Shown: positions 28,891 to 45,281, counted from the first letter of the stretch. The stretch is DNA of 64,000 nt from Escherichia coli (GCF_003018235.1 NZ_CP027437.1); one strand, 5' to 3'. Program-made: numbers and translations. Notes: a model not told the origin generated them from the sequence alone.

Positions 28891-29367
28891 AATAGTAGTA
28901 CTCCTGACTGAGATATATTTGAATGAATACCTATAGGAAACCTCAATCGGTCAAAATTAGCCCAATAGATAAAAAGATAACCACACACGAAGTGATGTGG
29001 CTATCAGTCAATTACATTAAATATCATACAAAAATAAAATATCACTGATGTGACAACATCTATTTTCATTGATTTGATTCAATATAACAATAGATTGCAG
29101 TAGATTAACTTCCAGTTGCTTAAAAAATAAAGAAAAAAGTATGAAAACAGGCGAATTTAAGTGATGTGTAAATTTATGAATGATTTTGTTTATTTATTTT
29201 GAAGAATATAAGCCATTGTATTTTGTATGGATATGGTTAACTTAATGTTTATTATGATAATTAAGAATCACACTTACAATAACATCAATTAATAAATGGT
29301 TAATCATTTTTGATATATCGTAAGAATAATGTAGTTTTTAACACCATCCCTGGTATCTCAACTATCT

Positions 29368-29970
29368 CTATAAAACAGCGTGACGCTGTCGTCCTCTGGC
29401 TCTATCCCAGATGCCGTAAAAACGCCCTGCATTGCTGGCGGTATACCAGACAGTATGACGAATATTGCGATGCCCAAGATAATCCTGGATAAGTCGCGTA
29501 TCTATTCCCATATTCGCCAAAGCAAAACCACACGAATGGCGTAACATGTGCGGATGAATCTCCAGTGACAACCCGGCATTACCACCAGAAGTCGAGATAA
29601 TATGGTAAAACTGTTGCCGAGAAAGCGGATTCCCCTTACGTGATAAAAATACCCACTCGCTCTCAGCATGCGGATAAGAAGTACGGATACTCAACCAGTT
29701 TTTTAAAGCCTGAACTTCTTTGTTCAATAGCGGGTGCGTTGTTGAAAAGCCTTTTTTTAATCGATGGATATATATACACTTTGCCTTAAGATCAATATCC
29801 GAAATCCTCAATCGACAAATTTCACTCGCCCGGAAACCATGAATAAAACAAAGCAAAGTCAGACAATAATTACGTGCTGCATGAGGCCCGGTATTTGCTG
29901 CTTTAAGGAGTGATTCGATTTCACTATGGGTCAGGAAGTTCCTTTTTTTGTTATCAGCCTTATTCTTCAT
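29368..29970 (-). CDS. fimB: Tyrosine recombinase FimB (bidirectional fim switch)
   Basis: 200 aa from MKNKADNKKRNFLTHSEIESLL. Paralogue of FimE. Confidence 0.9.
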   Translation of the reverse strand: MKNKADNKKRNFLTHSEIESLLKAANTGPHAARNYCLTLLCFIHGFRASEICRLRISDIDLKAKCIYIHRLKKGFSTTHPLLNKEVQALKNWLSIRTSYPHAESEWVFLSRKGNPLSRQQFYHIISTSGGNAGLSLEIHPHMLRHSCGFALANMGIDTRLIQDYLGHRNIRHTVWYTASNAGRFYGIWDRARGRQRHAVL

Positions 29971-30984
29971 CGTTTTTCCCTTATAATTACAGACGCGCAC
30001 TAGCTGTGCTGGGTTAGCAATAATCCAACATTTTAATCCTGATTATGTTTATAAAAGCGAACGTTTGCTTAATAACTAACGTAAGTGGACCAGTTCTTCT
30101 GAGCGAACTTAAATGGAGTAGCGATAGTTACTTATAATAACTTTGCCATACAAACGCCATGCTCTTGCATGCTATGTACCTTTATATATTTATCAATCTG
30201 ATACGAATCTAATAATAACCCTCATCATTAATGCAACTAATCTTATCTATATATCATGTGATATGTTCTGTAACAAGTAAAATCAACATAAAAAATTCAG
30301 CAAAATTTAATATTCGTTCAACTAGCCGTCTCACATATGACATTATTAGTCAACTGCATTTGCCACAAAATGGCTATTTCATGGAACGCAGTAATTTCTT
30401 AGTGGCTATTATCATGCTAATTCTTAGATCCCTAGCGATTATTCCTGCCTGGTTCGTCAGCTTAGGCCATGAGATTGTTACATTCCTTTTTATCCTGGAG
30501 ATATGGGGGAACGCAGGCGACGCTTTTTCATCTACATCCGTTGGTAAATATGGCTTTGGTCACTACGACTTAAACCTTCCTCAATCACAGCTATTCGCCG
30601 GGCGATACGGCAAACAAACTAAGTGAAACATCATTCTGAAAACACCAACATCAACAAGCCTCTCCAGATCGACATCAGGAGTGACCAGTTACAAGACACA
30701 AACCAAGAAACATATTTCATGATGAGAATTATGCTCAGCCTGATGGCGGGTAAACACTTATTTTCACCAAGCTCACTGAGTTAGCTTGCAAAGCTTTCTT
30801 TGTTTAGATTCTAAATAAATTTTTTATAAAACATATAGTTAGAAGAAAATCTTTAGTTTTTGAAGACCACCGCAAGTGTTCGTCTGGCTTCACATGGCAT
30901 CTGCCTCTTAGAAAAAGATCGACATATTTTGTGACACGAATTGCAAATCTGGTTTTGTTGTATGGATTGCGTGATTTTTGATCT

Positions 30985-31006
30985 GGTATAACAGGTATAA
31001 AGGTGC
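30985..31006. promoter_or_regulatory. NanR operator (GGTATA direct repeats) in the nanC promoter region
   Basis: ctGGTATAacaGGTATAaaGGTGca is a GGTATA-repeat operator like that of the nan regulon. It lies in the 1.45-kb fimB-nanC divergent intergenic region. Confidence 0.6.
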
Positions 31007-31422
31007 ACCACGATAGTCAATGAGACTGGGCATCTCGTAATCTATGGCAAACATCACTTCAGTTCTTTCACATCGGGTGATGAAAATGCACTTCAGTCTG
31101 AAAGGAATATGAAAATGAGATCAACAGACACTCTATTTTATGACTCTGGGTAAAATGGATTGAGTAAGTGATATAGCTTACGAACATTCAAATCAATTAA
31201 ACATCAGAAGAGATTTTATACTCAGGTATTTAATCTGGATCTCTGTTTATTTAAATAATGTGAAAAGAGAATTTTCACAGGAGACCTTATACAAAAAATA
31301 TAAAATAAGCTACCCGTTGCCAAAGACACTATAAGCCTGGCAAAAAATATTACACAACATAAATGCTAATTGTTTATGCGGGCTTTGTATTGCTTTCTGT
31401 ATCCTACAAATGAGTGAAATTT

Positions 31423-32139
31423 ATGAAAAAGGCTAAAATACTTTCTGGCGTATTATTACTGTGCTTTTCGTCACCATTAATTTCTCAGGCTGCGACACTG
31501 GACGTACGTGGTGGATATCGTAGCGGAAGCCATGCCTATGAGACTCGACTCAAAGTCAGTGAGGGATGGCAAAATGGATGGTGGGCAAGCATGGAAAGTA
31601 ATACCTGGAATACCATTCATGATAATAAAAAGGAAAATGCCGCACTCAATGATGTTCAGGTTGAAGTTAATTACGCGATTAAACTTGATGATCAATGGAC
31701 GGTGCGCCCGGGAATGTTAACGCATTTTAGCAGCAACGGTACACGCTACGGACCCTACGTAAAACTGTCCTGGGACGCGACAAAAGATCTTAATTTTGGC
31801 ATTCGCTATCGTTACGACTGGAAAGCTTACCGACAACAAGACTTATCCGGTGATATGTCTCGTGATAACGTTCATCGTTGGGATGGATATGTCACTTACC
31901 ATATTAATAGTGATTTCACCTTCGCATGGCAAACGACGCTATACAGCAAACAGAACGATTATCGCTATGCAAACCATAAGAAATGGGCGACGGAAAATGC
32001 ATTTGTTCTACAATACCATATGACGCCCGATATTACGCCATACATAGAATATGACTACCTTGACCGTCAGGGTGTTTACAACGGCAGAGATAATTTATCG
32101 GAAAACAGTTATCGCATTGGTGTGTCATTTAAACTGTAG
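31423..32139 (+). CDS. nanC: N-acetylneuraminic acid outer-membrane channel (KdgM family)
   Basis: 238 aa from MKKAKILSGVLLLCFSSPLISQA. The track ORF begins at an upstream GTG. Confidence 0.85.
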   Translation: MKKAKILSGVLLLCFSSPLISQAATLDVRGGYRSGSHAYETRLKVSEGWQNGWWASMESNTWNTIHDNKKENAALNDVQVEVNYAIKLDDQWTVRPGMLTHFSSNGTRYGPYVKLSWDATKDLNFGIRYRYDWKAYRQQDLSGDMSRDNVHRWDGYVTYHINSDFTFAWQTTLYSKQNDYRYANHKKWATENAFVLQYHMTPDITPYIEYDYLDRQGVYNGRDNLSENSYRIGVSFKL

Positions 32140-32158
32140 TAGACAGGAGACAGTCACA

Positions 32159-33265
32159 ATGAATAAAACAATAACGGCGCTTGCTATCATAATGGCTTCA
32201 TTTGCCGCAAACGCGTCTGTATTACCGGAAACTCCTGTGCCATTTAAAAGTGGTACCGGAGCAATTGATAACGACACTGTCTACATTGGTTTAGGTAGCG
32301 CAGGTACAGCATGGTACAAGCTGGATACACAGGCCAAAGATAAAAAATGGACAGCGTTAGCTGCATTCCCTGGTGGGCCGAGAGATCAAGCAACCTCTGC
32401 ATTTATTGATGGTAATCTGTATGTGTTTGGCGGCATTGGCAAAAACAGCGAGGGCTTGACTCAGGTATTTAATGACGTACACAAATACAACCCCAAAACC
32501 AATAGCTGGGTTAAATTGATGTCGCACGCGCCGATGGGCATGGCGGGCCATGTGACTTTTGTACACAACGGCAAGGCTTATGTTACTGGCGGTGTTAACC
32601 AGAATATCTTCAATGGCTATTTTGAAGATCTCAACGAGGCTGGAAAAGATTCAACCGCTATAGATAAAATCAACGCCCACTATTTTGACAAAAAAGCAGA
32701 AGATTATTTCTTCAATAAGTTTCTGTTGTCTTTTGATCCCTCAACACAGCAATGGAGTTACGCTGGCGAATCTCCCTGGTACGGAACGGCTGGTGCGGCG
32801 GTTGTGAATAAAGGTGATAAAACCTGGCTTATTAATGGCGAAGCCAAACCAGGATTGCGAACGGATGCCGTATTTGAACTTGATTTCACCGGTAATAATT
32901 TAAAATGGAATAAGCTTGCTCCCGTCTCATCACCAGATGGCGTCGCTGGCGGTTTTGCAGGCATGAGCAATGACTCACTGATATTTGCCGGAGGGGCCGG
33001 ATTCAAAGGGTCACGGGAAAATTACCAAAACGGTAAGAACTATGCGCATGAAGGCCTGAAAAAATCATATAGCACTGATATTCATCTTTGGCATAACGGG
33101 AAATGGGATAAATCTGGTGAATTATCGCAAGGTCGGGCCTACGGAGTATCATTGCCCTGGAATAATAGTTTATTAATTATTGGCGGTGAAACTGCAGGCG
33201 GCAAAGCGGTGACGGATTCAGTTTTAATTTCTGTGAAGGATAATAAAGTCACAGTACAAAACTAA
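32159..33265 (+). CDS. nanM: N-acetylneuraminate mutarotase (Kelch-repeat beta-propeller)
   Basis: 368 aa from MNKTITALAIIMASFAANA, with repeated Kelch-like G(G)xxY motifs. Confidence 0.85.
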   Translation: MNKTITALAIIMASFAANASVLPETPVPFKSGTGAIDNDTVYIGLGSAGTAWYKLDTQAKDKKWTALAAFPGGPRDQATSAFIDGNLYVFGGIGKNSEGLTQVFNDVHKYNPKTNSWVKLMSHAPMGMAGHVTFVHNGKAYVTGGVNQNIFNGYFEDLNEAGKDSTAIDKINAHYFDKKAEDYFFNKFLLSFDPSTQQWSYAGESPWYGTAGAAVVNKGDKTWLINGEAKPGLRTDAVFELDFTGNNLKWNKLAPVSSPDGVAGGFAGMSNDSLIFAGGAGFKGSRENYQNGKNYAHEGLKKSYSTDIHLWHNGKWDKSGELSQGRAYGVSLPWNNSLLIIGGETAGGKAVTDSVLISVKDNKVTVQN

Positions 33266-34317: not shown

Positions 34318-34518
34318 TTAATTTGATTTATTTGCATCCATTAGCGCTTTTAACTGCTCCGGCGTAAACGGTGGTTTGCGTCGGTGCAACATCGCATGGC
34401 AATTAGGGCACACAGGAAGCAAATCATTAACTGGATCCAGCTGGTAATCCTCTTTAATGGCTGAAAGCGGCACCAGGTGATGCACATTAAGCAATTTCAG
34501 AACCGCATGCTCATACAT
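34318..34518 (-). pseudogene. HNH-motif remnant ORF (66 aa), probably the C-terminal fragment of a degraded gene
   Basis: CPNCHAMLH HNH-like motif. Short ORF directly downstream of the 202-aa ORF on the same strand. Confidence 0.4.
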
Positions 34519-34577
34519 ATTTCCCCCTAAGTTTGCTCACTGCCTTTAATTTATGTCACAGGCAATGTAATTCACCT

Positions 34578-34649
34578 GAAGCTCATCTTGAATCTGTCCT
34601 TCTACTTAGTCATTACCCTACTGGCACAACCGACCTCAAGATGAGCTTC
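34578..34649. repeat. Perfect 14-bp inverted repeat GAAGCTCATCTTGA / TCAAGATGAGCTTC separated by 44 bp
   Basis: Direct reading of the sequence. Lies between the 202-aa ORF stop and the HNH remnant. Confidence 0.7.
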
Positions 34650-34655
34650 TTACTT

Positions 34656-35264
34656 TTAACGATGTATCAGAACAATCTTGCGCCGGGAGAATAGCGTTTC
34701 CGCAGACAGCTGGAATTTATATTCCGCGGCCTTCAGCTTTCGCGATTTAAGCATTTTCATCGTGATACCCCTTATTTTCCCTGACTCAACCTGTCTCTTG
34801 ATTTCGCCGGTGCTCAGCATGAGCTGCTTTTGCAAAATCGACAGCAGGCTGACCTGAAACGAACGGGAAATCCTGACGCTAACCTTGACCCATTTGCCGG
34901 GAGAAAGGCTGGCTAACCACTGCTCCTGAATGCGAAAATCAGGCCGACCCGATAGCTCTGCGTTGTTCCGCTTCAGCATCGCGATATCACAGGAAAAATG
35001 TTGAACCGTGGCTGCATCGTTGCTCATCAGCCGGTTATGAAGTTCGCGGTCAATTTTGCTGACGTGCAGGCGCGAAAATAGGGAGATATTCCAGGTGTAA
35101 TCACAGTGTGTGCATTTATAGATACTCCACACGTCCAGCACCTTCTTTTGCGAATTAATCCGAAATGCACCTGATGGCGTGAAGTCCCGTTTAATGTTGC
35201 ATGAAGGGCATCGCTTCGCAATGCGCTGATACCCCACGGGCGTGACGGTCCATGTAACTTTCAT
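34656..35264 (-). CDS. Hypothetical Cys-rich (zinc-finger-like) protein
   Basis: 202-aa ORF with CPSCN...CTHCDYTW motifs. No confident family assignment. Confidence 0.45.
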   Translation of the reverse strand: MKVTWTVTPVGYQRIAKRCPSCNIKRDFTPSGAFRINSQKKVLDVWSIYKCTHCDYTWNISLFSRLHVSKIDRELHNRLMSNDAATVQHFSCDIAMLKRNNAELSGRPDFRIQEQWLASLSPGKWVKVSVRISRSFQVSLLSILQKQLMLSTGEIKRQVESGKIRGITMKMLKSRKLKAAEYKFQLSAETLFSRRKIVLIHR

Positions 35265-35559
35265 AACCTACCTTTTTTAACCCATACAAAACCGGATCCG
35301 TACTGAACGGACCATGGATGTTTATGTATGAAAAATATTTAAGAGATATTTTTCAGAGGGTTAAAAAAAGATTTCCAACTATGCAATCCTGTCGGTGAGC
35401 AAAGAGATATAGCGAGACTATCAAAACGGCAATTATTGGGTATATGAGTTCAATCAATATTCATGATGGTTATGGCTTGTTCTATTGATCTGACACATTA
35501 AACACGGCGCATTAATTTTGTATGTTTTATGAACAACCCAACAACAAAAGGAGCGCGAT

Positions 35560-35811
35560 ATGACACAGCACGAACGGTTTTGTCAGGCCTGCGGAATGCC
35601 GATGTCCGCACCTGATGCGCAGGGGAGTAGCGATAAATACTGTGCATACTGCAGCGATAGCAACGGCAATCTTAAACCCTGGGAAGAGGCGGTATCAGGC
35701 TTGGCCAGCTTCCTTGATTCCTGGCAAAAAGTCGGTCCAGAAGAAGCACAGAAGCGTGCAAAACGTTATCTGACGGCAATGCCTGCCTGGGCTCATAAAG
35801 CGGACGAGTGA
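35560..35811 (+). CDS. Small zinc-ribbon protein (hypothetical)
   Basis: 83-aa ORF with CQACGMP...CAYCSD (CxxC-N-CxxC). Confidence 0.45.
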   Translation: MTQHERFCQACGMPMSAPDAQGSSDKYCAYCSDSNGNLKPWEEAVSGLASFLDSWQKVGPEEAQKRAKRYLTAMPAWAHKADE

Positions 35812-35875
35812 ATAACAAAGTCAGGGTGATTTAGGCAGTCTATCTTCACTCCGCTGATTCCATTAAGGAGAGCCG

Positions 35876-36268
35876 ATGTTTTCTCACATTATGCTTGGAA
35901 CCAACAACCTGCCACGCGCCATTGCATTCTACGATCCGTTGATGGATATGCTGGGGTATCCCCGCGGCGGCAGGAAGAGGAGATCGCATGGTGGGGCGTT
36001 TTCAACGGTAATAACACTACGGCACTGGGTATCAGTAGGCCATTTGATAAACAGGTTGCCACGACCCGAAATGGAGTGATGGTCGCCCTGATTGCGCGTT
36101 CTGCCGAACACATCCAGCAAGTTTCATGTGCTAGCTTTAAATCACGGTGGCACTGACGAGGGAGCACCTGGCCAGCGTCCGCATTACGGCGAAGGGTTCT
36201 ACAGCGCTTACGTCAGAGACACCGATGGCAACAAGCTGGCTTACGTTTATTACACCGCACAATCCTGA
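35876..36268 (+). pseudogene. VOC/glyoxalase-family gene disrupted by frameshifts
   Basis: The N-terminal part MFSHIMLGTNNLPRAIAFYDPLMDMLGYPR is in one frame. The middle (EEEIAWWGVFNGNNTTALGISRPFDKQVATTRNGVMVALIARSAEHIQQV) and C-terminal (HVLALNHGGTDEGAPGQRPHYGEGFYSAYVRDTDGNKLAYVYYTAQS) parts are recovered only by shifting frame. Confidence 0.6.
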
Positions 36269-36512
36269 GAACGATAAAGCGGGGGCCTCAGCGCCCCCAC
36301 CTGAAACTAAACCGATCCCGCAGATGTCAATGAGCGTTGAACGAGTTGATAAATGCCGAGATGTCTGACTGTTTTTACGCCAGAACTCCATGGTGTGACA
36401 ACCATACACATACTCCCTTCTTGACACCTTTAAACCATTTAACCGCATGCCTCTGTCTGCCCTGCAGGGACGGCTGATGCCTGTGTGTTGTCTGGCGGTA
36501 AGGAACAATACT

Positions 36513-36674
36513 ATGTACGCAAAATCCTTTATCGCTCTCGACGGGAATGGTCGTCTGACCGGTGCCCGTACTGCGCAGACCGCCCCTTACGATCGTTATA
36601 CCTGCCACCTCTGCGGTAGCGTGCTGCAATACCATCCTGAATACATCACCGAACGCCCGTGCTTTGAACAGTAA
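36513..36674 (+). CDS. Small hypothetical protein (53 aa)
   Basis: ATG preceded by AGGA. Contains CHLCGS. No family recognised. Confidence 0.3.
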   Translation: MYAKSFIALDGNGRLTGARTAQTAPYDRYTCHLCGSVLQYHPEYITERPCFEQ

Positions 36675-37266
36675 CCAACACACTGACAGAGGGCGGCGAA
36701 AATGCTTTATGCAAATCTTGATGCAAAGGCAGCCAGACGAATTCGTAAGTTACGCTTTTACGTGGCAGATACTCAAAGCAGACTGGCATTGTAGCGACGA
36801 TTGCCACGGTGAACGCTATTGTATGGCATGTAGTACCTGAGACTTCAGCCGCCCAGTAGATATAGCATCATGAAAAAACTGAAATGCTTTCTTGCCAACA
36901 ACTCACTGAGCTAGTATGCCTCCACCGATGTAACAATTAGAGCAAGCGTCAAAGTGCGAAACTGCCCTCACGTAGCTGCAAGTTAACACCAGGAAATCCT
37001 GGTTCAAACACGACCAGCTCTATGTTAGCGGCAAGCAATCGTTGAACTAAACGCATATGCAGCCGGAGATGAAAGTTAGGAAAAAAGCAGAGGCTGATAA
37101 GAATTATGCACGTTGAGCTGGGATCGTAATACCCCACTTAAAATGTACAAGGGGAGTAGTCTAATGATGTTAAATACGAACCTTCAGTATTGTTCATTCA
37201 CCAATTTTCCCATATTCTCTCATCATTAATATTCTCTGCCGAATTTTATAGGGCTAACTCGCTGAA

Positions 37267-37473
37267 ATGAATGACAAAGCTTTAACCTTGAAAGATGTGG
37301 TGGCTTACTTAAAGTTGGCAGAAAAAACAGCGTATAGGTTGACTAGCGAAGGCAAATTGCCGGGATTTAAGGTTGAAGGCTCATGACGCTTCAAACGAGA
37401 GGATTTAGATATGTGGATTGAAGGTCAGAAGACTCAAAGCTACCCGAGTATCACAAAATCCAATCGTGGTTGA
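37267..37473 (+). pseudogene. AlpA/excisionase-type helix-turn-helix regulator gene interrupted by an in-frame TGA
   Basis: MNDKALTLKDVVAYLKLAEKTAYRLTSEGKLPGFKVEGS-stop-RFKREDLDMWIEGQ. The stop at 37384-37386 sits where this family has a conserved Trp (TGG). Confidence 0.6.
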
Positions 37474-37666
37474 TCAAGTGGATAAACATGAAAAGTCGGT
37501 AGCCCTCAAAGGCCACTTGCCACATGCAGTGAAGCAAGCCGTTGTGCAAGCTCTACTGAAAGAAGGTGATATCGCCCGAACGTTGCTCAAGGATCCACAA
37601 GTTATGGCAAGTTATGTTGAGCTGATTTTCGACATGATGAAGCAGAATAAAAATATGAATATCTAA
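37418..37666 (+). CDS. Hypothetical small ORF (TTG start), overlapping the HTH remnant out of frame
   Basis: 82-aa ORF from the track. Non-ATG start and no recognisable motifs. Confidence 0.25.
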   Translation: MKVRRLKATRVSQNPIVVDQVDKHEKSVALKGHLPHAVKQAVVQALLKEGDIARTLLKDPQVMASYVELIFDMMKQNKNMNI

Positions 37667-37708
37667 AAGATTTTGGGCTATCTATTACGTTTTAAAATGA
37701 GATAAATA

Positions 37709-40246
37709 ATGATAAATGACCATGAAGAACTAGAACTTGCTAAAGCTCAGGCAAAAGAAATATGGAAGATCCTTGATTATGTTCGAGGAGCATCACCTAT
37801 ATCTAATTATCGCTCATTAGCGTATTCAATCTTCTTCGTACGCTATCTTCAATCCAATACAGGTCAGCATTTTGAGGCAGAAAGGTTCGACTCTTTTAAT
37901 GTCATCGCCCAGTATTCCTACGATCTTGTAAACTATGCCGTTCAACTTGGATTGATTCATAGCGACGTATCTAAATTCTTAATTTATTATTTAGAAAACA
38001 CACTCCGTTCATTTGTCAATATTGATGAGTCTTTTGTTCGTTATGCAATTAGAGATGGTCTACTCAATAAAACCCCTGCAATAGCGTCGCTTTCTTTATC
38101 AGAACTGGATTTACTTTTTGCCGAGAATGAAGGTAAGTCAGGAGGTGAGTTTTATACCCCTAGAGACGTCAACTTATTGGTTAAAATATTAGGATTGAGT
38201 TATCAACCAAAGTCAATATGTGACCCATTTGCAGGTGCTGGAAACACAGCATTTCCTTTTGCCAATACTGGTATTGAAAAAGTTAGGATTGATACTCAAG
38301 AAATTAATAGAGATGCTTACTTTAAACTAGTAATAAGTAGAGTCATCAGGAAAATAGAAGGTCGAGACTATTTCGGCGATTCCCTATCACAACCATTATA
38401 TCAAGAAAATAAATATGATCTGATAGTTTCTTTCCCACCTTTTGGCATGAAAATTCCTAAAGCCACTCGAAATAATATTTACTATAAAACAAGTAATAAG
38501 TGGCTGGATATTACTGAAATCTTGCCAGAAAGTAGAAGTGATTGGTTTATAACATTATCAATGCTTCCAGCCCTTTCTGAGGGGGGTAAGATACTAGTAG
38601 GTATGTCACTTGGGGCTTTGACAAGAGCAGGCTCTGAGGCAAAGGTTCGTGAGTATTTAGTCTCTCGCGGAATTATCGAACAAGTAATTCTTTTACCTAA
38701 AAATATTTATTACTCTACGGCTATCTCAACTGTACTTCTTGTCCTCAACTCAGGAACAAGTAACATAAATAACAGAAGTATTAAATTTGTAGATGCTTCA
38801 CTGTTTTACGAGCCTGCCCGTGGTCGAAACACCCTCACAACAAAAAATATAAATGAGATCGTAGAGGCTTGTCATAAAGATGGCCGATTTAGTATTAGTT
38901 CATCTCATACCCAAATAGCAAACAGAGACTTTAATTTAGATCCGTCTCTTTATGTACGTAAAGATCTCAAAATCAGTGAGGTTTCTTTAAAAAATTTTAG
39001 AGGATACTCTGACTTTAAAGTTTCGATACATCCTTCTTTAAATGTATTGGTTGGTGAGAACGGCGTCGGGAAAACTTCGATATTAGAAGCATTAGCATGT
39101 GGCCTTGGTCCTTTCCTTACTGCTATGCCTGATGCTAAAGGAAAACTGATAAAAAAATCAGATATCCATATAAGTTCAAAAGGAATCGCAAATTATGCTC
39201 GAATATCGATTGAAACAACATCAAGTTTAAGTTGGGATCTTGTGGCAAAGGGGGTTGATGTTTCCGAGCCCCCTAAGATAGGAACATCAGCATTAACTAG
39301 CTACGCTACTCATCTTGTAGATAGTCAGTCTGAATATCCACTCATTGCTTATTATGGGACTAACCGTGCTCTTACTTCTACCAGTTCTAAAGTTGCAATA
39401 AATCCATTCGAGAAAGAAAATCGTGGGGAAGGTTATGACTTTGCTTTAGATGCTAAAGTTAACTACGGCATCTTAAAGAACTGGTTTTCAAAAATAGAGG
39501 TTGATGAGCTTCGAAAACGTGATGAACTAAAAGACCATAAATTCATTCATCCGGCTAAGAGACTTGTTTCAGAGGCTGTTTACCAGATTGTTGATCGAGC
39601 TACATGCTTGGAGTTCGACAAAAATAGTAACGATGTTATGGTTCATTGGAAAAATGAGCAGGGAGAGTGCGTAAAGCTTACATTGGAACAACTAAGTGAA
39701 GGGTATAGAAATATGGTATCCCTGACCATTGACCTAGTGAGGCGTGCTTATTTACTTAATCCTACCAAACCGAAACCGCTAACAGTTAATGGGATCGTTT
39801 TAATTGATGAAATTGAACTTCACTTGCACCCTAGATGGCAGCAAAAGATTTTAAATGATCTTACTAAGCTGTTTAAGAATATTCAGTTTATTGTCACGAC
39901 ACATAGTCCTCAAGTCTTAACAACAATCAAAGCCGATTGTATCCGTATTGTTTCCGTCAATGCTAACGAAGCAAAATTAGTGACAGGAACTACTACTTAC
40001 GGTTCTGAAAGCTCAAGAATGTTGGAAGATGTTTTAGGTGGTAACAATCGCGCCCAACATCTTGATATTGTTAAAAAACTAAACCGTTATACAGAGTTAG
40101 TAGAGGCCGACAAATGGGATACCGATGAGGCATTAGAACTCAAAAAAGAGTTATATAAATGGGGTGGTCAGACAGAAGACGAGCTTCAAAAATTAGAAAC
40201 TGATATTCGAATTCGCGAGTTCGAGCGTGGCAATGAAAAAGATTAA
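37709..40246 (+). CDS. Fusion protein: N-terminal HsdM-like N6-adenine DNA methyltransferase domain plus C-terminal ABC/AAA_21-type ATPase domain (PtuA-like)
   Basis: 845-aa ORF. Methyltransferase motifs GGEFYTPRDV, ICDPFAGAGNTAF (motif I) and DLIVSFPPFG (motif IV region). ATPase motifs: Walker A VLVGENGVGKTS, signature-like LSEGYRNMVSL, Walker B VLIDEIELHLHP, H-loop FIVTTHSP. Confidence 0.75.
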   Translation: MINDHEELELAKAQAKEIWKILDYVRGASPISNYRSLAYSIFFVRYLQSNTGQHFEAERFDSFNVIAQYSYDLVNYAVQLGLIHSDVSKFLIYYLENTLRSFVNIDESFVRYAIRDGLLNKTPAIASLSLSELDLLFAENEGKSGGEFYTPRDVNLLVKILGLSYQPKSICDPFAGAGNTAFPFANTGIEKVRIDTQEINRDAYFKLVISRVIRKIEGRDYFGDSLSQPLYQENKYDLIVSFPPFGMKIPKATRNNIYYKTSNKWLDITEILPESRSDWFITLSMLPALSEGGKILVGMSLGALTRAGSEAKVREYLVSRGIIEQVILLPKNIYYSTAISTVLLVLNSGTSNINNRSIKFVDASLFYEPARGRNTLTTKNINEIVEACHKDGRFSISSSHTQIANRDFNLDPSLYVRKDLKISEVSLKNFRGYSDFKVSIHPSLNVLVGENGVGKTSILEALACGLGPFLTAMPDAKGKLIKKSDIHISSKGIANYARISIETTSSLSWDLVAKGVDVSEPPKIGTSALTSYATHLVDSQSEYPLIAYYGTNRALTSTSSKVAINPFEKENRGEGYDFALDAKVNYGILKNWFSKIEVDELRKRDELKDHKFIHPAKRLVSEAVYQIVDRATCLEFDKNSNDVMVHWKNEQGECVKLTLEQLSEGYRNMVSLTIDLVRRAYLLNPTKPKPLTVNGIVLIDEIELHLHPRWQQKILNDLTKLFKNIQFIVTTHSPQVLTTIKADCIRIVSVNANEAKLVTGTTTYGSESSRMLEDVLGGNNRAQHLDIVKKLNRYTELVEADKWDTDEALELKKELYKWGGQTEDELQKLETDIRIREFERGNEKD

Positions 40247-41021
40247 TAAGCTAGATGAGCCAAATCGGCTTGGTGTGTTCAAGGCTACTCATCCTAATGC
40301 TTTGTGGGAGAGGGATAAAAACTCAATTGAAGAGGCTTTCCGTTGTTGCATTGCCAGATATCAAGAAACTCTACAACAATTACGTACGGACCAAGGTAAT
40401 TTATGTGCATATTGTGAACAGGATTTAATGTCTGGAACTAATGGGGCATTAGATGACTGCCGTATTGAGCATTTTCATCCGAAATCTAAACGTGAACAGG
40501 GAGAACCTAATTGGGCTTTGGAATGGAGCAATTTGTTAGTTGTTTGCTGTGGCGGAAATCAAAGTAAAGTTGTTAATCCTGGGCAAAGATTTGATGCTGA
40601 TCCCAAAAATTACTCTTGCGATGTACCAAAGAGTGACAAAATTTTAGATACCATTATATTAAATCCACTTAATTTACCTGAATTAAATATCTGGAAGTTT
40701 CATCGTTCTTCGGGGCAAATTTCCGTAAATGAAGATTCCTGTTTAGAATTTGGTATAAGTGTTGAAATGGCACACCAAACAATTAAAGAATTGAATTTAA
40801 ATTCCCCTCGATTAATTAGATTTCGAAAGGCTATTCTAAATAATCTCAACATTTTAATAACAGAAAGGCTGAAGAAGGGACAAACGGTAGAGCAAGCTGT
40901 TAGATTTATTGCCATATCACTCTTTAGAAAAAATGGAGCAGGTGATTGGCCCTCTTTTTTTAGTGCAACACGATATTATTTAGGTCAGCAGGCTGAGCTT
41001 GTTTTAGCCCAACCTATTTAA
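40233..41021 (+). CDS. HNH endonuclease (PtuB/TIGR02646-like), translationally coupled to the upstream fusion gene
   Basis: 262 aa from MKKINKLDEP. HNH motifs CAYCE, CRIEHFHPKS, NLLVVCCGGN. Its start overlaps the 3' end of the upstream gene by 14 nt. Confidence 0.7.
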   Translation: MKKINKLDEPNRLGVFKATHPNALWERDKNSIEEAFRCCIARYQETLQQLRTDQGNLCAYCEQDLMSGTNGALDDCRIEHFHPKSKREQGEPNWALEWSNLLVVCCGGNQSKVVNPGQRFDADPKNYSCDVPKSDKILDTIILNPLNLPELNIWKFHRSSGQISVNEDSCLEFGISVEMAHQTIKELNLNSPRLIRFRKAILNNLNILITERLKKGQTVEQAVRFIAISLFRKNGAGDWPSFFSATRYYLGQQAELVLAQPI

Positions 41022-41040
41022 CATACTTTCAACTAGTTAG

Positions 41041-41063
41041 AGAGGCTGCTTTTGGCAGCCTCT
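41041..41063. terminator. Hairpin between convergent genes (AGAGGCTGC-TTTTG-GCAGCCTCT), likely bidirectional terminator
   Basis: Perfect 9-bp stem with a 5-nt loop in the 60-bp gap between the 3' ends of the convergent genes. Confidence 0.55.
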
Positions 41064-41081
41064 TGCAGAGTGCAGAATCGA

Positions 41082-42515
41082 CTACAGGGGCGATGCTAGC
41101 TCAGAGAACCAAGCGTGAACTGATCTGTAAAATGTGCTGATTGACCAAAACTCACTGCATGCAGCAACTAACAGAATGACCACTAAGAGGATCACTACAG
41201 TAGAAGTCATTCTTTCCACACGGCAGTATGATCCCATCGCATCTTTTACAGGTTGTCTAGCCAGTTCCTGATAATCCAGCTCATCCAGAAATCCGTATAA
41301 TTTAGTTCTCCAGGTGGTTCTAACTCTTTCAAGTAATGAAATTGTTTGCCTATTAATATAGACAGACATTCCATAGGAAATAACTATATAAACCGCGATA
41401 GCACAAAAAACCAAAGCGTAAATATTTTGCAAACCAACTGATTTTACTGCATCCAGACTGTAGCGAATAACCAAGACACTAATTACAAGAGCCATATCTT
41501 TCCATAAGGAAGAGGACAAATCTCGGGATTGCTGAATGATCTTTTGTGTATCTTCAGCCAGCGTTTTCCGCAAATCACCCAAGGATTTCATAGTATCTTT
41601 ACCACCAGTCCTGATATGGGCCTTATACATTAACCGTGCAGACTCCAAAGCTGATGAGAGTCGAAGCATCACTCCCTCACAAAAGTTCAGGTCTGAAGGC
41701 CACTCTCTAGCCAGCTCGCTGGACAAAAACGTATGTTTCAGCTCAGTTTCATTCCCCTCTAGAAAAATCCACTTTGCCGCTTCCTGGATAATATCAAAAG
41801 CAGGTAACGCTGCCGTCTCATCGCCGAATGCTATTTTTCTGGGAGGCTTTCCCGCAAGCCCCACCATCATTTCGTCAGCAAAAAAAAGTTCATTTGCAAA
41901 ACATTTCAGCAACTCTCGGCATCCTAGCAATTTCCATATCTTGATTGCTTCATCAGTCTTCTCACTACAAGTTTCAAGTATCCAAGGGGCAATGGCATCT
42001 GGAGGAAGAAAAGTTGTTGAATAACATTTGATGATACTTTTTGTTACTGAAGGCTTAGTGATAGCTGTTGCATCACCAGCACTCACCGGCTGTATCTCCT
42101 TCCATGGATGCACATACCAACTTATTGTCTGAAAGCCTTCAGTAATAAACAGCCCATAAATATGTTTGTACCGACAGAGTTTGCTATCTTGAAGTAAAAA
42201 AGTGCGCCATCCTTCTAAGGTAAAAAGCCTCAGTATCCCCGGAATTTCATTATAAGTGATGGTAATGTAGTGCTTCTGCCCTGGGACCCCCTCTCTCGGA
42301 TGAATAACATCTCTGCTCTCATCGATAAAAACGATCTTGAGATCTTCCGCATGTACATCCACTATTTCTCCCCATAAATCAAGGGATTCACTATCCATTG
42401 TGGCGGAAATAAAAAGCTTATGGATAGACACCTGCTGGTCCTCTGTGATCACAAGGTCAGATAAATGTCGTGAGTGGCATATAGCCTTACCGATTTTTTC
42501 CAATATCGATATCAT
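41082..42515 (-). CDS. Hypothetical protein with two C-terminal transmembrane helices (membrane-anchored), second gene of a two-gene cassette
   Basis: 477-aa ORF. Hydrophobic stretches LVISVLVIRYSL...IYALVFCAIAVYIVISYGMSVYI and TSTVVILLVVILLVAACSEFW. No recognisable catalytic motif. Confidence 0.5.
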   Translation of the reverse strand: MISILEKIGKAICHSRHLSDLVITEDQQVSIHKLFISATMDSESLDLWGEIVDVHAEDLKIVFIDESRDVIHPREGVPGQKHYITITYNEIPGILRLFTLEGWRTFLLQDSKLCRYKHIYGLFITEGFQTISWYVHPWKEIQPVSAGDATAITKPSVTKSIIKCYSTTFLPPDAIAPWILETCSEKTDEAIKIWKLLGCRELLKCFANELFFADEMMVGLAGKPPRKIAFGDETAALPAFDIIQEAAKWIFLEGNETELKHTFLSSELAREWPSDLNFCEGVMLRLSSALESARLMYKAHIRTGGKDTMKSLGDLRKTLAEDTQKIIQQSRDLSSSLWKDMALVISVLVIRYSLDAVKSVGLQNIYALVFCAIAVYIVISYGMSVYINRQTISLLERVRTTWRTKLYGFLDELDYQELARQPVKDAMGSYCRVERMTSTVVILLVVILLVAACSEFWSISTFYRSVHAWFSELASPL

Positions 42516-43548
42516 CTGTTACCAATCCTGCAGTCACAATTACAATTCGTTTTCGCCCGTCTTCCATATTTTCTACTTCTGGTGCATTGTCTTCATCGTA
42601 GATAATGATTACATCTTCCAATGTTTCCAGTTTTCTCTTCCGGGGCTTCTGAATGTTATCGGGAATGATGCGGAAAGATTCACCTGAAATTCCTAAATCC
42701 TTTATTTTACGAAAAAAATACTTAACCAGAGGGTGTTCTTCCTCCAAAGGACCAAAAATCTGGGTCAACAATGGCAGTGCTTCATCAGTATTAAAATCCT
42801 GTTCGCCATGGCGTAAAGTTTCATAAATTTTGTTTACTCCGCTGCGCTTGATCTCTTCAGGTAGTAAGTTTCGATGCTTTTTATATACATCTTTTAATAC
42901 AGTAACTAGCTTATCGCTGAGCTGAGTTGGGTCATTGACGCGCTTAACCTGTAGAAATCGTTCAAAATAGACAGAGATGTTAGTACGTTTGCTGCGATCT
43001 CGTACGACAACTAATCCGCCCGGCAAATCTTCATTCAGCCGTACCAGTGCGATTTTCTGCATGGCTTCGGCTTTTTTAACGAAACTTTCGCGAAAGCGTT
43101 CGAGTTTAGGTACCTGAAACTCATCTCCTTCAACATCCAGCACATAACGGACTACATCTTCATTGTCATACTTAATCAACGCATACAGTTTCTCATCGTT
43201 GAGTGTATGAAGTTCAAAAAGGAAAAAAACGCCCATACTGGCATTCTTGGTATGGTGGTGAGACTGAAAATCGCTTGCCAATAAGGAGGATTGCTCAGTA
43301 AAGCAGCCGATATCGGTGTCTGCATGTTCCCTGATGATCCTCAGGATTCGCTCTGTATTTGACAACTCCTTAAAATGAAACATATTGCCACTAACTGCAG
43401 ATTTGATACGTTCCAGAAAGAAATCAACATGCTCCGGAGGGGAAATTTCGCTGAGTAAAACAGGGACTTCCAACTCACCGCCAACCACATGAAAAATCAT
43501 CCTTTTTATTGATAATGCATTGATTTCTTCATCCGTTAAAAAACTCAT
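42487..43548 (-). CDS. Hypothetical cytoplasmic protein (353 aa), first gene of the two-gene cassette; weak NdpA/YejK-like resemblance at most
   Basis: ATG start confirmed. Overlaps the downstream ORF by 29 nt. Acidic C-terminus. No confident domain assignment. Confidence 0.5.
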   Translation of the reverse strand: MSFLTDEEINALSIKRMIFHVVGGELEVPVLLSEISPPEHVDFFLERIKSAVSGNMFHFKELSNTERILRIIREHADTDIGCFTEQSSLLASDFQSHHHTKNASMGVFFLFELHTLNDEKLYALIKYDNEDVVRYVLDVEGDEFQVPKLERFRESFVKKAEAMQKIALVRLNEDLPGGLVVVRDRSKRTNISVYFERFLQVKRVNDPTQLSDKLVTVLKDVYKKHRNLLPEEIKRSGVNKIYETLRHGEQDFNTDEALPLLTQIFGPLEEEHPLVKYFFRKIKDLGISGESFRIIPDNIQKPRKRKLETLEDVIIIYDEDNAPEVENMEDGRKRIVIVTAGLVTDDIDIGKNR

Positions 43549-43744
43549 TTTTATTTCTCAATATAGTGTTTATATTTACTACCGTGAGCCATCTTACCTA
43601 AGCGTAGAACGTGGCGGAAAACACGATAACATTATTGCATAGCTTACGGCGTAACTTATCCTCGCCCCAGACAGAATAAACGTCAAAATAAAATAATGAA
43701 AATATGATCGAGACAGCATTAGCTGCCCCGCTTTCTTAGACTTT

Positions 43745-44998
43745 TTACATTATTAGGGCAAAATCAAACGGACTCACCCCCTTCTCCCGATTCGCATCCA
43801 GATAATTTGCCCACCACTGCAGCATCAACCTACGCTCCCCAAGATGTTCCGCCTTATGGATGTATGCCGCCCGCACAGAGCTACGCTCCTGATGGCTCAT
43901 CTGCCGCTCCACTGCATTCCTCGACCACAATCCTGATTCAATAAGTGAACTACAGGCCATCGTCCTGAAACCATGCCCACAGACTTCCGTTTTGGTGTCA
44001 TAGCCCATAACTCGCAAAGCCTTGTTCACCGTATTCTCACTCATCGGCTTATGCGGATCGTGATCGCCCACAAAAATCAGCTCTCGATTTCCATTCATGC
44101 TTTTGATCTTTTCCAAAATAGCTAAGGCCTGCCGCGATAAGGGTACAAGATGGGGAGTTCGCATCTTCGAACCACGCTGAGAATGTTTAACACCGTCCAA
44201 CGGTTCACGCTCACCGGGGATCGTCCACATGGCCGTTTCAAAATCCACTTCTGACCAACGGGCAAAGCGCAGTTCGCTTGAACGGATGAAAACTAACAAA
44301 GTGAGTTCGACAGCCAGTCGAGTTAACGGCCTGCCGGAGTAATGATCAATGCGGTGAAGTAATTCAGGTATGCGGTTAAGCTCCAGAGCCGCACGATGCT
44401 GTCTTTTAGCAGTAGCAACCGCACCGGTAATCTCTTGCGCGGGGTTGTAGTCGATTAAGCCGCTCTGAACGGCAAAGCGCATAATCGCGGTAGTTCGCTG
44501 CTGTAAACGGGCGGCGACTTCAAGACGTCCGGATGACTCCACCGCTTTAATGGGTACAAGAAGATCCCGAGTCTTAAGCTCTGCAATGTTCCGCTTACCG
44601 ATAGCAGCAAAGAGATTATCTTCTAGGCTTTTCAATACACGAGCACTATGCGATGCAGACCACTTCTGATTACTGGCATGCCAGTCTCTGACGACCACTT
44701 CAAACGTTATCGCCTCTTGCTCCTGTTCTACCTTAACCGCTTTCTTGTTTTCACTGGGATCGACGCCGTTCGCTAAAAGCTTACGCGCTTCGTCTCGCCG
44801 CGATCGAGCATCAGCTAACGAAACTTCAGGATACTTCCCTAGCGCCAGCATCTTCTCTTTACCACCGAAACGATAACGAAGCCGCCAGTATTTGGAGCCG
44901 TTAGGGTGAACCAGCAAAACCATGCCTTCACCATCAGTAAGTTTATAGGCTTTTGCTTCAGGCTTTGCCGAACGAACCTTCACATCACTCAGAGCCAT
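43745..44998 (-). CDS. int: P4-family tyrosine integrase
   Basis: 417 aa from MALSDVKVRSAKPEAKAYKLTDGEGMVLLVHPNGSKYWRLRYRFGGKEKMLALGKYP (P4-type integrase N-terminus). Catalytic region HGFRTMA...Y. Lies directly beside the tRNA-Leu 3' end. Confidence 0.9.
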   Translation of the reverse strand: MALSDVKVRSAKPEAKAYKLTDGEGMVLLVHPNGSKYWRLRYRFGGKEKMLALGKYPEVSLADARSRRDEARKLLANGVDPSENKKAVKVEQEQEAITFEVVVRDWHASNQKWSASHSARVLKSLEDNLFAAIGKRNIAELKTRDLLVPIKAVESSGRLEVAARLQQRTTAIMRFAVQSGLIDYNPAQEITGAVATAKRQHRAALELNRIPELLHRIDHYSGRPLTRLAVELTLLVFIRSSELRFARWSEVDFETAMWTIPGEREPLDGVKHSQRGSKMRTPHLVPLSRQALAILEKIKSMNGNRELIFVGDHDPHKPMSENTVNKALRVMGYDTKTEVCGHGFRTMACSSLIESGLWSRNAVERQMSHQERSSVRAAYIHKAEHLGERRLMLQWWANYLDANREKGVSPFDFALIM

Positions 44999-45196
44999 GA
45001 TGAATATCCTTTCAAGGGTTCTGTGTGGGTACAAACATTATCGAACCGGGATATACCCGCAGTTGTACCCGCATCAGTAAGTTGATGTAGATTGAATCAG
45101 GTTGACTTAGGTTGAGTGAAAAAGCGAGGAAAGCCTTGCGGATACTGGATTTCAGGCATAAAAAAAGACCTCAGTTGAGGTCTATTTACATACTTA

Positions 45197-45281
45197 TGGT
45201 GCCGAAGGCCGGACTCGAACCGGCACGTATTTCTACGGTTGATTTTGAATCAACTGCGTCTACCGATTTCGCCACTTCGGC
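45197..45281 (-). tRNA. leuX: tRNA-Leu (anticodon CAA)
   Basis: The minus-strand sequence reads GCCGAAGTGGCGAAATCGGTAGACGCAGTTGATTCAAAATCAACCGTAGAAATACGTGCCGGTTCGAGTCCGGCCTTCGGCACCA (85 nt), with a CAA anticodon loop and a CCA end. Confidence 0.9.

What the first reader, a model, noticed from the sequence alone, without database searches (positions are those of the whole stretch)
29971..31422. Long AT-rich fimB-nanC divergent intergenic region (about 1.45 kb) with a NanR-type GGTATA operator
The large non-coding region carries GGTATA repeats at 30985-31006 near nanC. This is consistent with sialic-acid regulatory input on both nanC and the distant fimB promoter. The six-frame ORF at 30231-30626 inside it is probably spurious.
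Basis: partly seen in the sequence, partly recalled or inferred. Interest (0 to 1): 0.25.

Follow-up and report, generated by a model that had tools for sequence, protein, structure and literature searches.

The report
Known fimB–nanC sialic-acid regulatory spacer
This is the well-studied 1.45 kb E. coli control region between the fimbrial switch gene fimB and the sialic-acid porin gene nanC, with its NanR operator intact; it is real but already known.

Summary
Window 29971-31422 is the 1452 bp spacer between fimB (29368-29970, minus) and nanC (31423-32139, plus). Its GC content is 36%, against 47% for the whole window. It carries GGTATA-ACA-GGTATA-AA-GGTGCA at 30985-31007, directly after a GATC site.

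This is the E. coli nanC-fimB regulatory region, present in about 5020 of 5426 complete genomes and 96.5% identical to K-12. The 27-nt core TTGATCTGGTATAACAGGTATAAAGGT is identical to the NanR operators upstream of nanA and nanX. The 93-bp NagC/NanR block is identical in 3997 of 5099 genomes. Published anchors fit: the fimB 5' UTR is 271 nt, the SlyA site O_SA1 matches exactly, the NanR operator lies 755 bp upstream of the fimB start site and a second NagC-like site about 480 bp upstream.

NanR most likely represses a nanA-type promoter that reads toward nanC. Together with NagC and IHF it also activates the distant fimB promoter. Sialic acid would therefore switch nanC on and fimbrial switching down.

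The ORF at 30231-30626 is longer than chance predicts (p about 0.01) but shows no coding signature, so "spurious" is supported.

Two small additions are mine. The spacer's middle, especially the IHF-like zone, is hypervariable across E. coli. The nanC and nanX operators both sit about 415-440 bp from their start codons, unlike nanA (36-58 bp).

The parts
29368..29970 (-). fimB CDS (type 1 fimbria switch recombinase)
   Evidence: RefSeq annotation of the 99.9%-identical genome NRZ14408 and of K-12. Pfam Phage_integrase, 2.2e-58.
29971..30241 (-). fimB 5' UTR (271 nt). Contains the SphI site (30167-30172) and the ops-like element TGGCGTTTGTAT (30149-30160, minus strand).
   Evidence: PMC3911127 gives the UTR length, the SphI site at -203 and the OLE sequence. 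All three are found at the predicted window positions. pi = 0.021.
30248..30276 (-). fimB sigma-70 promoter: -10 TATATA at 30248-30253 and -35 TTGTTA at 30271-30276; transcription start about 30241
   Evidence: Positions are inferred from PMC3911127 (the -10 lies immediately upstream of -277 relative to the ORF) and read from the sequence. There are 0 variable columns in 30242-30300 among 14 alleles. The 93-bp probe 30230-30322 is identical in 4201/5047 genomes.
30409..30420 (-). SlyA operator O_SA1 (TTAGCATGATAA)
   Evidence: Exact match to the published site (PMC3173223). It lies 168-179 bp upstream of the inferred start site; the paper gives 167-194.
30231..30626 (+). 131-aa ORF overlapping the fimB promoter and its upstream region. 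Judged non-coding: an orphan, non-conserved frame.
   Evidence: See the full report.
30710..30734 (.). Candidate NagC operator O_NC2 (ACATATTTCATGATGAGAATTATGC)
   Evidence: The best ungapped match to the O_NC1 candidate is at an offset of exactly 212 bp. It lies about 480 bp upstream of the fimB start site; PMC3173223 says about 470. The core 30710-30733 is invariant in 14 alleles. Binding was not tested here.
30796..30860 (.). Hypervariable AT-rich zone holding an IHF-like core, AAACATATAGTTA, at 30829-30841
   Evidence: pi = 0.154, 30 of 65 columns variable, 13 haplotypes in 14 alleles. The 93-bp probe is identical in only 3 genomes and detectable in only 1313. The core has 1 mismatch to WATCARNNNNTTR in 10/14 alleles and 2 mismatches in this window. 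The zone is midway between the two NagC-like sites. IHF placement rests on my recollection of Sohanpal 2007, which could not be read.
30917..30946 (.). GATC (30917-30920) plus candidate NagC operator O_NC1 (30922-30946), overlapping a CRP-like TGTGAcacgaaTTGCA (30930-30945)
   Evidence: Identical to K-12. Nearly invariant in 14 alleles: two alleles lose this GATC and one has a change inside the site at 30943. The same register holds TGTGA-like sites upstream of nanX and nanA. The CRP pattern alone is not above chance.
30980..31007 (+). GATC (30980-30983) plus the NanR operator GGTATA-ACA-GGTATA-AA-GGTGCA (30985-31007). TGgTATAAC at 30984-30992 doubles as an extended -10 reading toward nanC.
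   Evidence: 13 of 14 alleles are identical; one has GGTACA in repeat 2. pi = 0.005. The 93-bp block 30917-31009 is identical in 3997/5099 genomes. NanR SELEX on the K-12 spacer: PMC5934670.
30999..31422 (+). Inferred nanC leader (about 424 nt). The nanC-proximal part corresponds to a published H-NS-bound 'promoter island'.
   Evidence: The start site is inferred from the extended -10 and from the CRP-like site centred at -61.5; it has not been verified. The promoter island 4537484_311 nanC/fimB is listed in PMC3661553 and maps to about 31155-31463. pi = 0.02-0.03, close to the neutral proxy.
31423..32139 (+). nanC CDS (sialic-acid-inducible KdgM-family porin), first gene of nanCMS
   Evidence: RefSeq annotation. 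Pfam KdgM, 1.2e-28.

Best explanation
The region is this strain's allele of the E. coli nanC-fimB regulatory spacer.

A nanA-type promoter module faces nanC. It consists of a CRP-like site, an extended -10 and a (GGTATA)2-plus-degenerate-third NanR operator that covers the -10 and the inferred start site. NanR bound there blocks RNA polymerase and so represses nanCMS.

The same NanR complex also raises transcription from the fimB promoter about 755 bp away. It does so together with NagC bound at two sites 212 bp apart (O_NC1 next to the operator, O_NC2 nearer fimB) and an IHF bend between them. SlyA and H-NS act on the promoter-proximal part of the spacer.

Sialic acid releases NanR, and GlcNAc-6-P releases NagC. 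This induces nanC and lowers FimB, which reduces OFF-to-ON switching of type 1 fimbriae.

Shown here: identity, position and conservation of the sites. Taken from the literature on the K-12 allele: protein binding and the direction of the regulatory effects. Inferred: the nanC start site (about 30999) and the CRP and IHF assignments.
For: Synteny with K-12 and 96.5% identity; the spacer is present in about 5020/5426 genomes.

The composite operator occurs once in the window, against 0 in 100 shuffles. Its 27-nt core is identical in the nanC, nanX and nanA promoters, and a TGTGA-like site sits at the same register in all three.

Window 30904-31010 is 100% identical to K-12. pi is 0.005 across the operator, against 0.021-0.028 at third codon positions of the flanking genes. 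The 93-bp operator block is identical in 78% of genomes, against 66% for a nanC coding probe.

Distances agree with the papers. The UTR is 271 nt (PMC3911127). O_SA1 matches exactly at -168 to -179 (PMC3173223). The operators lie '760 to 470 bp upstream' in PMC3173223, against 755 and about 480 measured here. The two NagC-like sites align at an offset of 212 bp.

NanR genomic SELEX gives a peak on the nanC/fimB spacer (PMC5934670). NanR binds (GGTATA)2 with a Kd of 25 nM, similar to (GGTATA)3 (PMC8012715). H-NS and RNA polymerase holoenzyme peaks in the spacer are reported in PMC3946193, PMC3661553 and PMC5493296.
Against: No binding or expression data exist for this allele. The primary papers (El-Labany 2003; Sohanpal 2004, 2007; Condemine 2005; Kalivoda 2003, 2013) could not be read. 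As a result, the exact footprints of O_NC1, O_NC2 and IHF and the nanC start site rest on my recollection and on geometry.

The third repeat is degenerate (GGTGCA). The IHF-like core has two mismatches to the consensus in this allele. The consensus promoter scan found no -35/-10 pair at the operator. The CRP-like match is not above chance on its own.
Confidence: 0.9

Rival explanations
1. The ORF at 30231-30626 is a real gene, possibly lineage-restricted. It would encode a small membrane protein transcribed divergently from fimB.
For: An ORF of at least 131 aa arises in only 0.85% of 2000 dinucleotide shuffles of the spacer. Some alleles keep 195-207 aa open, and gene callers predict it in many assemblies. 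The product has hydrophobic stretches after Met51. A published predicted RpoD promoter, TCAACA-17-TTTAAT, faces the same way at 30284-30312 (PMC3946193; sequence).
Against: ORF length in 14 alleles is 131, 135, 105, 88 (K-12) or 73 (O157:H7) aa. Alleles use different frames in the middle, and the stop codon varies. Variable sites by codon phase are 12/17/21, against 3/1/18 for fimB and 2/1/23 for nanC. There is no Pfam hit. HMMER against 1.84 billion representatives finds only E. coli allelic fragments and three repetitive proteins. RefSeq annotates nothing here in any listed genome. No Shine-Dalgarno sequence precedes either ATG. Its 3' half lies in DNA that is only 90-95% identical in most genomes.
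Confidence: 0.04
2. In this allele the operator module works only as the nanC promoter. Long-range activation of fimB is weakened or lost because the IHF-bend zone between the NagC sites has diverged.
For: The IHF-like core has T where 10 of 14 alleles keep A or G, giving 2 mismatches. The zone is the most variable DNA of the locus. The operator module is paralogous to the nanA and nanX promoters and so primarily belongs to nanC.
Against: NanR, both NagC-like sites, both GATC sites, the SlyA site and the fimB promoter are all intact and identical to K-12. By my recollection of Sohanpal 2007, IHF helps NagC but is not needed for NanR activation. IHF tolerates degenerate cores, and the upstream A/T tract is kept.
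Confidence: 0.1
3. Most of the 1.45 kb has no sequence-specific function. It is a decayed or horizontally acquired AT-rich filler silenced by H-NS. Only short islands matter: the fimB promoter with the SlyA site, the two NagC sites and the NanR promoter module. This complements the main explanation rather than replacing it.
For: pi in 30431-30705 is 0.058 and in 30796-30860 is 0.154, which exceeds the third-position pi of fimB and nanC (0.021-0.028). Population probes agree. H-NS binding and a 'promoter island' in the spacer are reported in PMC3661553 and PMC3946193. The stop-poor ORF with locally higher GC (0.41-0.44) could be a gene relic.
Against: No homologue of any ancestral gene was found. 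The spacing between sites may itself be functional, because spacer length is kept within about 1450-1462 bp. Diversity above the neutral proxy needs a further cause.
Confidence: 0.3

Closest known systems
E. coli K-12 nanC(yjhA)-fimB intergenic regulatory region (O_NR, O_NC1, IHF, O_NC2, SlyA/H-NS sites; Blomfield and Plumbridge laboratories)
   Same: Same locus and gene order. Spacer length is 1452 bp here and 1455 bp in K-12, with 96.5% identity. The O_NC1-to-O_NR block (30904-31010), the O_NC2 core, O_SA1 and the fimB promoter are identical.
   Different: About 50 substitutions and 5 single-base indels, concentrated in 30431-30870. The IHF-like core carries A->T at 30834. K-12 has an extra GATC at the position matching 30848-30851. 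The ORF is open here (131 aa) and truncated in K-12 (88 aa).
nanA promoter and (GGTATA)3 NanR operator of nanATEK-yhcH
   Same: The 27-nt core TTGATCTGGTATAACAGGTATAAAGGT is identical, with a GATC directly 5' and a TGTGA-like site about 50 bp upstream at the same register.
   Different: nanA has an exact third GGTATA; nanC has GGTGCA. The nanA operator lies 36-58 bp from its ATG, whereas the nanC operator lies 416-438 bp away. nanA has no divergent partner regulated at long range.
nanXY (yjhBC) promoter and NanR operator
   Same: About 80 bp of paralogous promoter (TTTGTGACA ... GATCTGGTATAACAGGTATAAAGGT). The operator is likewise 412-434 bp upstream of the start codon. There is weak further similarity in the leader (CTGAA-GGA-TA-GAAAATGAG).
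   Different: nanX has an exact third repeat. It lies in the KpLE2-type island, which is absent from this window, and it is not linked to fimB.

Membership tests
NanR operator of the E. coli sialoregulon | At least two direct GGTATA hexamers | tested here: met
   Exact hexamers at 30985-30990 and 30994-30999. PMC8012715 shows that two repeats suffice for high-affinity binding.
NanR operator of the E. coli sialoregulon | Repeats separated by 2-3 nt (PMC3658417) | tested here: met
   The spacers are ACA (3 nt) and AA (2 nt), the same as in nanA and nanX.
NanR operator of the E. coli sialoregulon | Three exact GGTATA repeats, (GGTATA)3, as at nanA | tested here: not met
   The third hexamer is GGTGCA (4/6) in this window, in K-12 and in all 14 alleles. 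This is the normal state of the nanC operator and not a defect of this strain.
NanR operator of the E. coli sialoregulon | Sits in the promoter of a sialic-acid utilisation operon | tested here: met
   It lies upstream of nanC-nanM-nanS. The module is paralogous to the nanA and nanX promoters.
NanR operator of the E. coli sialoregulon | Bound by NanR and released by Neu5Ac | not testable with these tools
   Literature only, for the K-12 allele with an identical operator block: genomic SELEX (PMC5934670). That study reports NanR remaining on this site even with Neu5Ac.
K-12-type nanC-fimB long-range regulatory spacer | Divergent fimB and nanC separated by about 1.4 kb | tested here: met
   1452 bp. 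PMC3946193 quotes 1456-1458 bp for K-12.
K-12-type nanC-fimB long-range regulatory spacer | [quoted passage not shown] | tested here: met
   With the start site at 30241 (271-nt UTR, PMC3911127), the operator centre at 30996 is 755 bp away and the O_NC2 candidate centre at 30722 is 481 bp away.
K-12-type nanC-fimB long-range regulatory spacer | SlyA operator O_SA1, TTAGCATGATAA, 167-194 bp upstream of the fimB start | tested here: met
   Exact match at 30409-30420 on the minus strand, at -168 to -179.
K-12-type nanC-fimB long-range regulatory spacer | GATC (Dam) sites adjacent to the NanR and NagC operators | tested here: met
   GATC at 30980-30983 and 30917-30920. Methylation protection itself cannot be tested here.
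K-12-type nanC-fimB long-range regulatory spacer | IHF site between the two NagC operators | tested here: inconclusive
   An IHF-like core lies at 30829-30841, midway between the NagC-like sites. It has 2 mismatches here and 1 mismatch in 10/14 alleles. The published footprint could not be read.
Protein-coding gene (ORF 30231-30626) | Reading frame and length conserved among alleles | tested here: not met
   Lengths range from 73 to 135 aa in 14 alleles and up to 207 aa in database predictions. The frame switches in the middle.
Protein-coding gene (ORF 30231-30626) | Excess of third-codon-position substitutions | tested here: not met
   12/17/21 by phase, against 3/1/18 (fimB) and 2/1/23 (nanC) in the same alignment.
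Protein-coding gene (ORF 30231-30626) | Homologues beyond the species, or a known domain | tested here: not met
   only E. coli allelic variants and no Pfam family.

The most novel reading that the evidence does not exclude
The middle of the spacer, above all the IHF-bend zone at 30796-30860 between the two NagC sites, is not just unconstrained. It could be a target of diversifying selection, or a mutation or recombination hot spot. Either would re-tune, lineage by lineage or host by host, how strongly sialic-acid and GlcNAc sensing is coupled to fimbrial phase switching. The protein-binding cores on both sides would stay frozen.
Probability: 0.12. Interest if true: 0.45.

Novelty: already known. 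Interest (0 to 1): 0.1.

Why it matters
The region links two host-inflammation signals, sialic acid and GlcNAc, to the decision to make type 1 fimbriae, which are a colonisation and urinary-tract virulence factor. It also links them to uptake of sialic acid through NanC. All known control elements are intact in this allele, so K-12 regulatory knowledge can be transferred to this strain. Nothing here changes the published picture. The hypervariable IHF zone and the shared long leaders of nanC and nanX are modest leads for population-level or mechanistic follow-up.

Tried and rejected
1. Against K-12 alone, 7 of the first 8 substitutions inside the ORF fell on its third codon position, and two indels compensated each other. 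I suspected a real gene. With 14 alleles the phase counts became 12/17/21 and the frame proved unstable, so I rejected this.

2. A cross-species comparison using NanC as query against one genome per species returned only E. coli, plus a 462-bp contaminant contig.

3. An Rfam scan of 29300-32200 at E<=1 found nothing.

4. The consensus promoter scan found no plus-strand promoter at the operator. The nanC promoter is inferred from an extended -10 and from paralogy to nanA.

5. The CRP consensus with up to 2 mismatches gave 23 hits against 27.7 expected in the window. It is not significant alone and is kept only because the same register is occupied in nanA and nanX.

6. There is an inverted repeat between the fimB leader (30175-30186) and the right part of the operator. 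A 12-nt pair in AT-rich DNA is judged to be chance.

7. The mini-ORF in the nanC leader (31109-31153) has 3 non-synonymous and 1 synonymous change among 14 alleles, so it shows no constraint.

8. The primary papers could not be opened. A search for the '212 bp' statement found nothing.

Full report
**What is there.** The window carries the E. coli fim/nan locus in reverse orientation relative to K-12. fimA, fimE and fimB (29368-29970) lie on the minus strand. nanC (31423-32139), nanM and nanS lie on the plus strand. Pfam confirms FimB as a Phage_integrase-family recombinase and NanC as a KdgM-family porin. The spacer 29971-31422 is 1452 bp long with GC 0.360, against 0.471 for the window. At least 80% of it is present in 5020 of 5426 complete E. 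coli genomes. It is 99.9% identical to strain NRZ14408 and 96.5% identical to K-12 W3110. RefSeq annotates no feature in it in any listed genome.

**The repeat.** Two exact GGTATA hexamers lie at 30985-30990 and 30994-30999, followed by GGTGCA at 31002-31007. The spacers are 3 and 2 nt, and a GATC lies at 30980-30983. Single hexamers are common. The composite GGTATANNNGGTATANNGGT occurs once in 64 kb and never in 100 shuffles.

Aligned with the nanX upstream region (from a genome that lacks the spacer) and with the K-12 nanA upstream region, the 27-nt core TTGATCTGGTATAACAGGTATAAAGGT is identical in all three. A TGTGA-like half-site sits about 50 bp upstream at the same register in all three. 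The repeat is therefore the NanR operator embedded in a nanA-type promoter module that faces nanC. The third repeat is exact at nanA and nanX and degenerate at nanC, in every allele examined. Horne et al. showed that (GGTATA)2 binds NanR with an affinity similar to (GGTATA)3, and that one repeat does not bind (PMC8012715).

**Anchoring to published work.**
- PMC3911127 gives fimB a 271-nt 5' UTR, a -10 element just upstream of -277, an SphI site at -203 and an ops-like element TGGCGTTTGTAT. In the window these fall at a start site of about 30241, a -10 TATATA at 30248-30253, SphI at 30167-30172 and the ops-like element at 30149-30160.
- The published SlyA operator O_SA1 (TTAGCATGATAA) matches exactly at 30409-30420, which is -168 to -179. 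The paper gives 167-194.
[quoted passage not shown] Here the operator centre is 755 bp upstream.
- A sequence resembling the one next to the operator (ACATATTT..GA..GAATT) lies 481 bp upstream. The two align best at an offset of exactly 212 bp. That figure is the one I recall from the abstract of Sohanpal 2007, but I could not confirm it in the held library.
- Genomic SELEX places NanR on this spacer in K-12 (PMC5934670). RpoD and RpoS holoenzyme peaks, H-NS binding and a 'promoter island' at the nanC-proximal end are also on record (PMC3946193, PMC5493296, PMC3661553).
- The K-12 allele is 100% identical to this window across 30904-31010, which covers the GATC, the NagC-like site, the spacer, the second GATC and the operator. 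It is also identical across the O_NC2 core.

**Conservation.** I aligned 14 alleles: the window, K-12 and 12 genomes spread over the identity ranking.

| Segment | pi |
|---|---|
| fimB CDS | 0.011 |
| nanC CDS | 0.007 |
| fimB, third codon positions | 0.028 |
| nanC, third codon positions | 0.021 |
| Whole spacer | 0.037 |
| fimB core promoter (30242-30300) | 0 (no variable column) |
| GATC + operator block (30980-31009) | 0.005 |
| Spacer before the operator (30953-30979) | 0.005 |
| 30431-30705 | 0.058 |
| 30796-30860 | 0.154 (13 haplotypes in 14 alleles) |

The 14 alleles were chosen by spacer identity, so I repeated the comparison with 93-bp probes against all genomes.

| 93-bp probe | Identical genomes / genomes with a match |
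|---|---|
| O_NC1-O_NR block (30917-31009) | 3997 / 5099 |
| fimB promoter (30230-30322) | 4201 / 5047 |
| nanC coding segment (31600-31692) | 3333 / 5054 |
| ORF middle (30500-30592) | 85 / 4480 |
| IHF-like zone (30780-30872) | 3 / 1313 |

For the IHF-like zone, about 3700 spacer-bearing genomes are too different for megablast to detect at all. The binding-site islands are thus as conserved as coding DNA or more so, while the DNA between them is exceptionally variable. The diversity of this spacer has already been exploited for host-source biomarkers (PMC11267920).

Within the hot zone, an IHF-like core AAACARNNNNTTA is kept in 10 of 14 alleles while its N positions and flanks vary. This window has T at the R position. 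Natural variants of note are loss of the NagC-side GATC in two alleles and GGTACA in repeat 2 of one allele.

**The ORF.** The 131-aa ORF is longer than expected: an ORF of at least 131 aa appears in 0.85% of 2000 dinucleotide shuffles. Gene callers have predicted it in many assemblies. Every test of coding failed.
- Its length is 131, 135, 105, 88 (K-12) or 73 (O157:H7) aa among 14 alleles. Database versions read the middle in different frames or read through the stop to 195-207 aa.
- Variable sites are spread 12/17/21 over codon phases, against 3/1/18 and 2/1/23 for fimB and nanC in the same alignment.
- There is no Pfam family. An exhaustive HMMER search found nothing but E. coli allelic fragments.
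- Its first 72 codons are intact everywhere only because they overlie the invariant fimB promoter.
- It may be a relic of a lost gene. GC is locally 0.41-0.44, but no ancestor was found.

**Mechanism.** The best-supported reading is the published one. NanR on the operator occludes the nanC promoter. I infer an extended -10 TGgTATAAC at 30984-30992, a start near 30999 and a CRP-like site centred at -61.5 that overlaps the NagC-like site. With NagC at two sites and an IHF bend between them, NanR also stimulates the fimB promoter from 470-760 bp away. SlyA counteracts H-NS nearer that promoter (PMC3173223, PMC5401889). Neu5Ac and GlcNAc-6-P remove the two regulators, which induces nanCMS and lowers FimB-mediated OFF-to-ON switching. 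Binding and regulatory direction come from the literature on an allele whose sites are identical. The nanC start site and the CRP and IHF assignments are my inferences.

**Comparison and verdict.** This is the same system as in K-12, not a relative of it, so its novelty is 'already known'. Two minor points may not have been stated before. One is the extreme population-level variability of the IHF zone between frozen operator islands. The other is that the nanC and nanX operators both sit more than 400 bp from their start codons, while the paralogous nanA operator sits 36-58 bp away. Neither changes the score much.

Noticed in passing
window 30796-30860 (also 30431-30705): The zone between the two NagC-like sites is hypervariable. 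pi is 0.154, against 0.02-0.03 at synonymous-like positions of the flanking genes. A 93-bp probe is identical in 3 genomes and detectable by megablast in only 1313 of about 5100 spacer-bearing genomes. The adjacent operator block is identical in 3997.
   Followed up: partly
window 30985-31422; L003 2534-2968; L018 13432-13490: The NanR operators of nanC and nanX lie about 412-438 bp upstream of their start codons, whereas the paralogous nanA operator lies 36-58 bp upstream. The nanC and nanX leaders share a weak block (CTGAA-GGA-TA-GAAAATGAG). In nanC this block starts a 14-codon mini-ORF (31109-31153, MKMRSTDTLFYDSG) that shows no constraint among 14 alleles.
   Followed up: partly
window 37709-41021 (+), within a leuX island at about 34318-45281: A Septu-like defence pair. 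An 845-aa protein fuses an N6-adenine DNA methyltransferase domain (residues 137-418) to a PtuA ATPase (420-843; PADLOC 5e-106). It is followed by PtuB (40227-41021; 2e-100). The pair lies between nanS and tRNA-Leu(CAA) (45197-45281), next to a tyrosine integrase (43745-45034). This island differs from the one in the otherwise closest genome, NRZ14408.
   Followed up: partly
window 34318-34518 (-) and 34656-35264 (-): Only a 66-aa HNH fragment is open where NRZ14408 has a 217-aa HNH endonuclease. The neighbouring gene is a DUF1062 protein (4e-40). This suggests a rearranged or decayed island edge just past nanS.
   Followed up: no
window 30175-30186 vs 30996-31007: The fimB 5' UTR contains TGTACCTTTATA. 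This is the reverse complement, with one mismatch, of the right part of the NanR operator (TATAAAGGTGCA). It is probably chance in AT-rich DNA, but it would be a candidate looping partner.
   Followed up: no
L014/L015 at window-equivalent 30917; L012 at 30998: Natural variants. Two genomes lose the NagC-side GATC (G->T). One genome has GGTACA in the second NanR repeat.
   Followed up: no
L005 (strain M70), fimB: fimB is truncated by an ISL3-family ISEc53 insertion in a urinary-tract isolate, while the spacer and nanC are kept.
   Followed up: no
L001 (K-12 W3110 RefSeq): Locus tags jump from Y75_RS22510 (nanC) to Y75_RS22525 (fimB). Two tags once assigned inside the spacer are therefore no longer annotated.
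   Followed up: no
L017: A 462-bp, low-coverage contig in a Terrisporobacter petrolearius assembly encodes 99%-identical E. coli NanC. This is almost certainly contamination.
   Followed up: no
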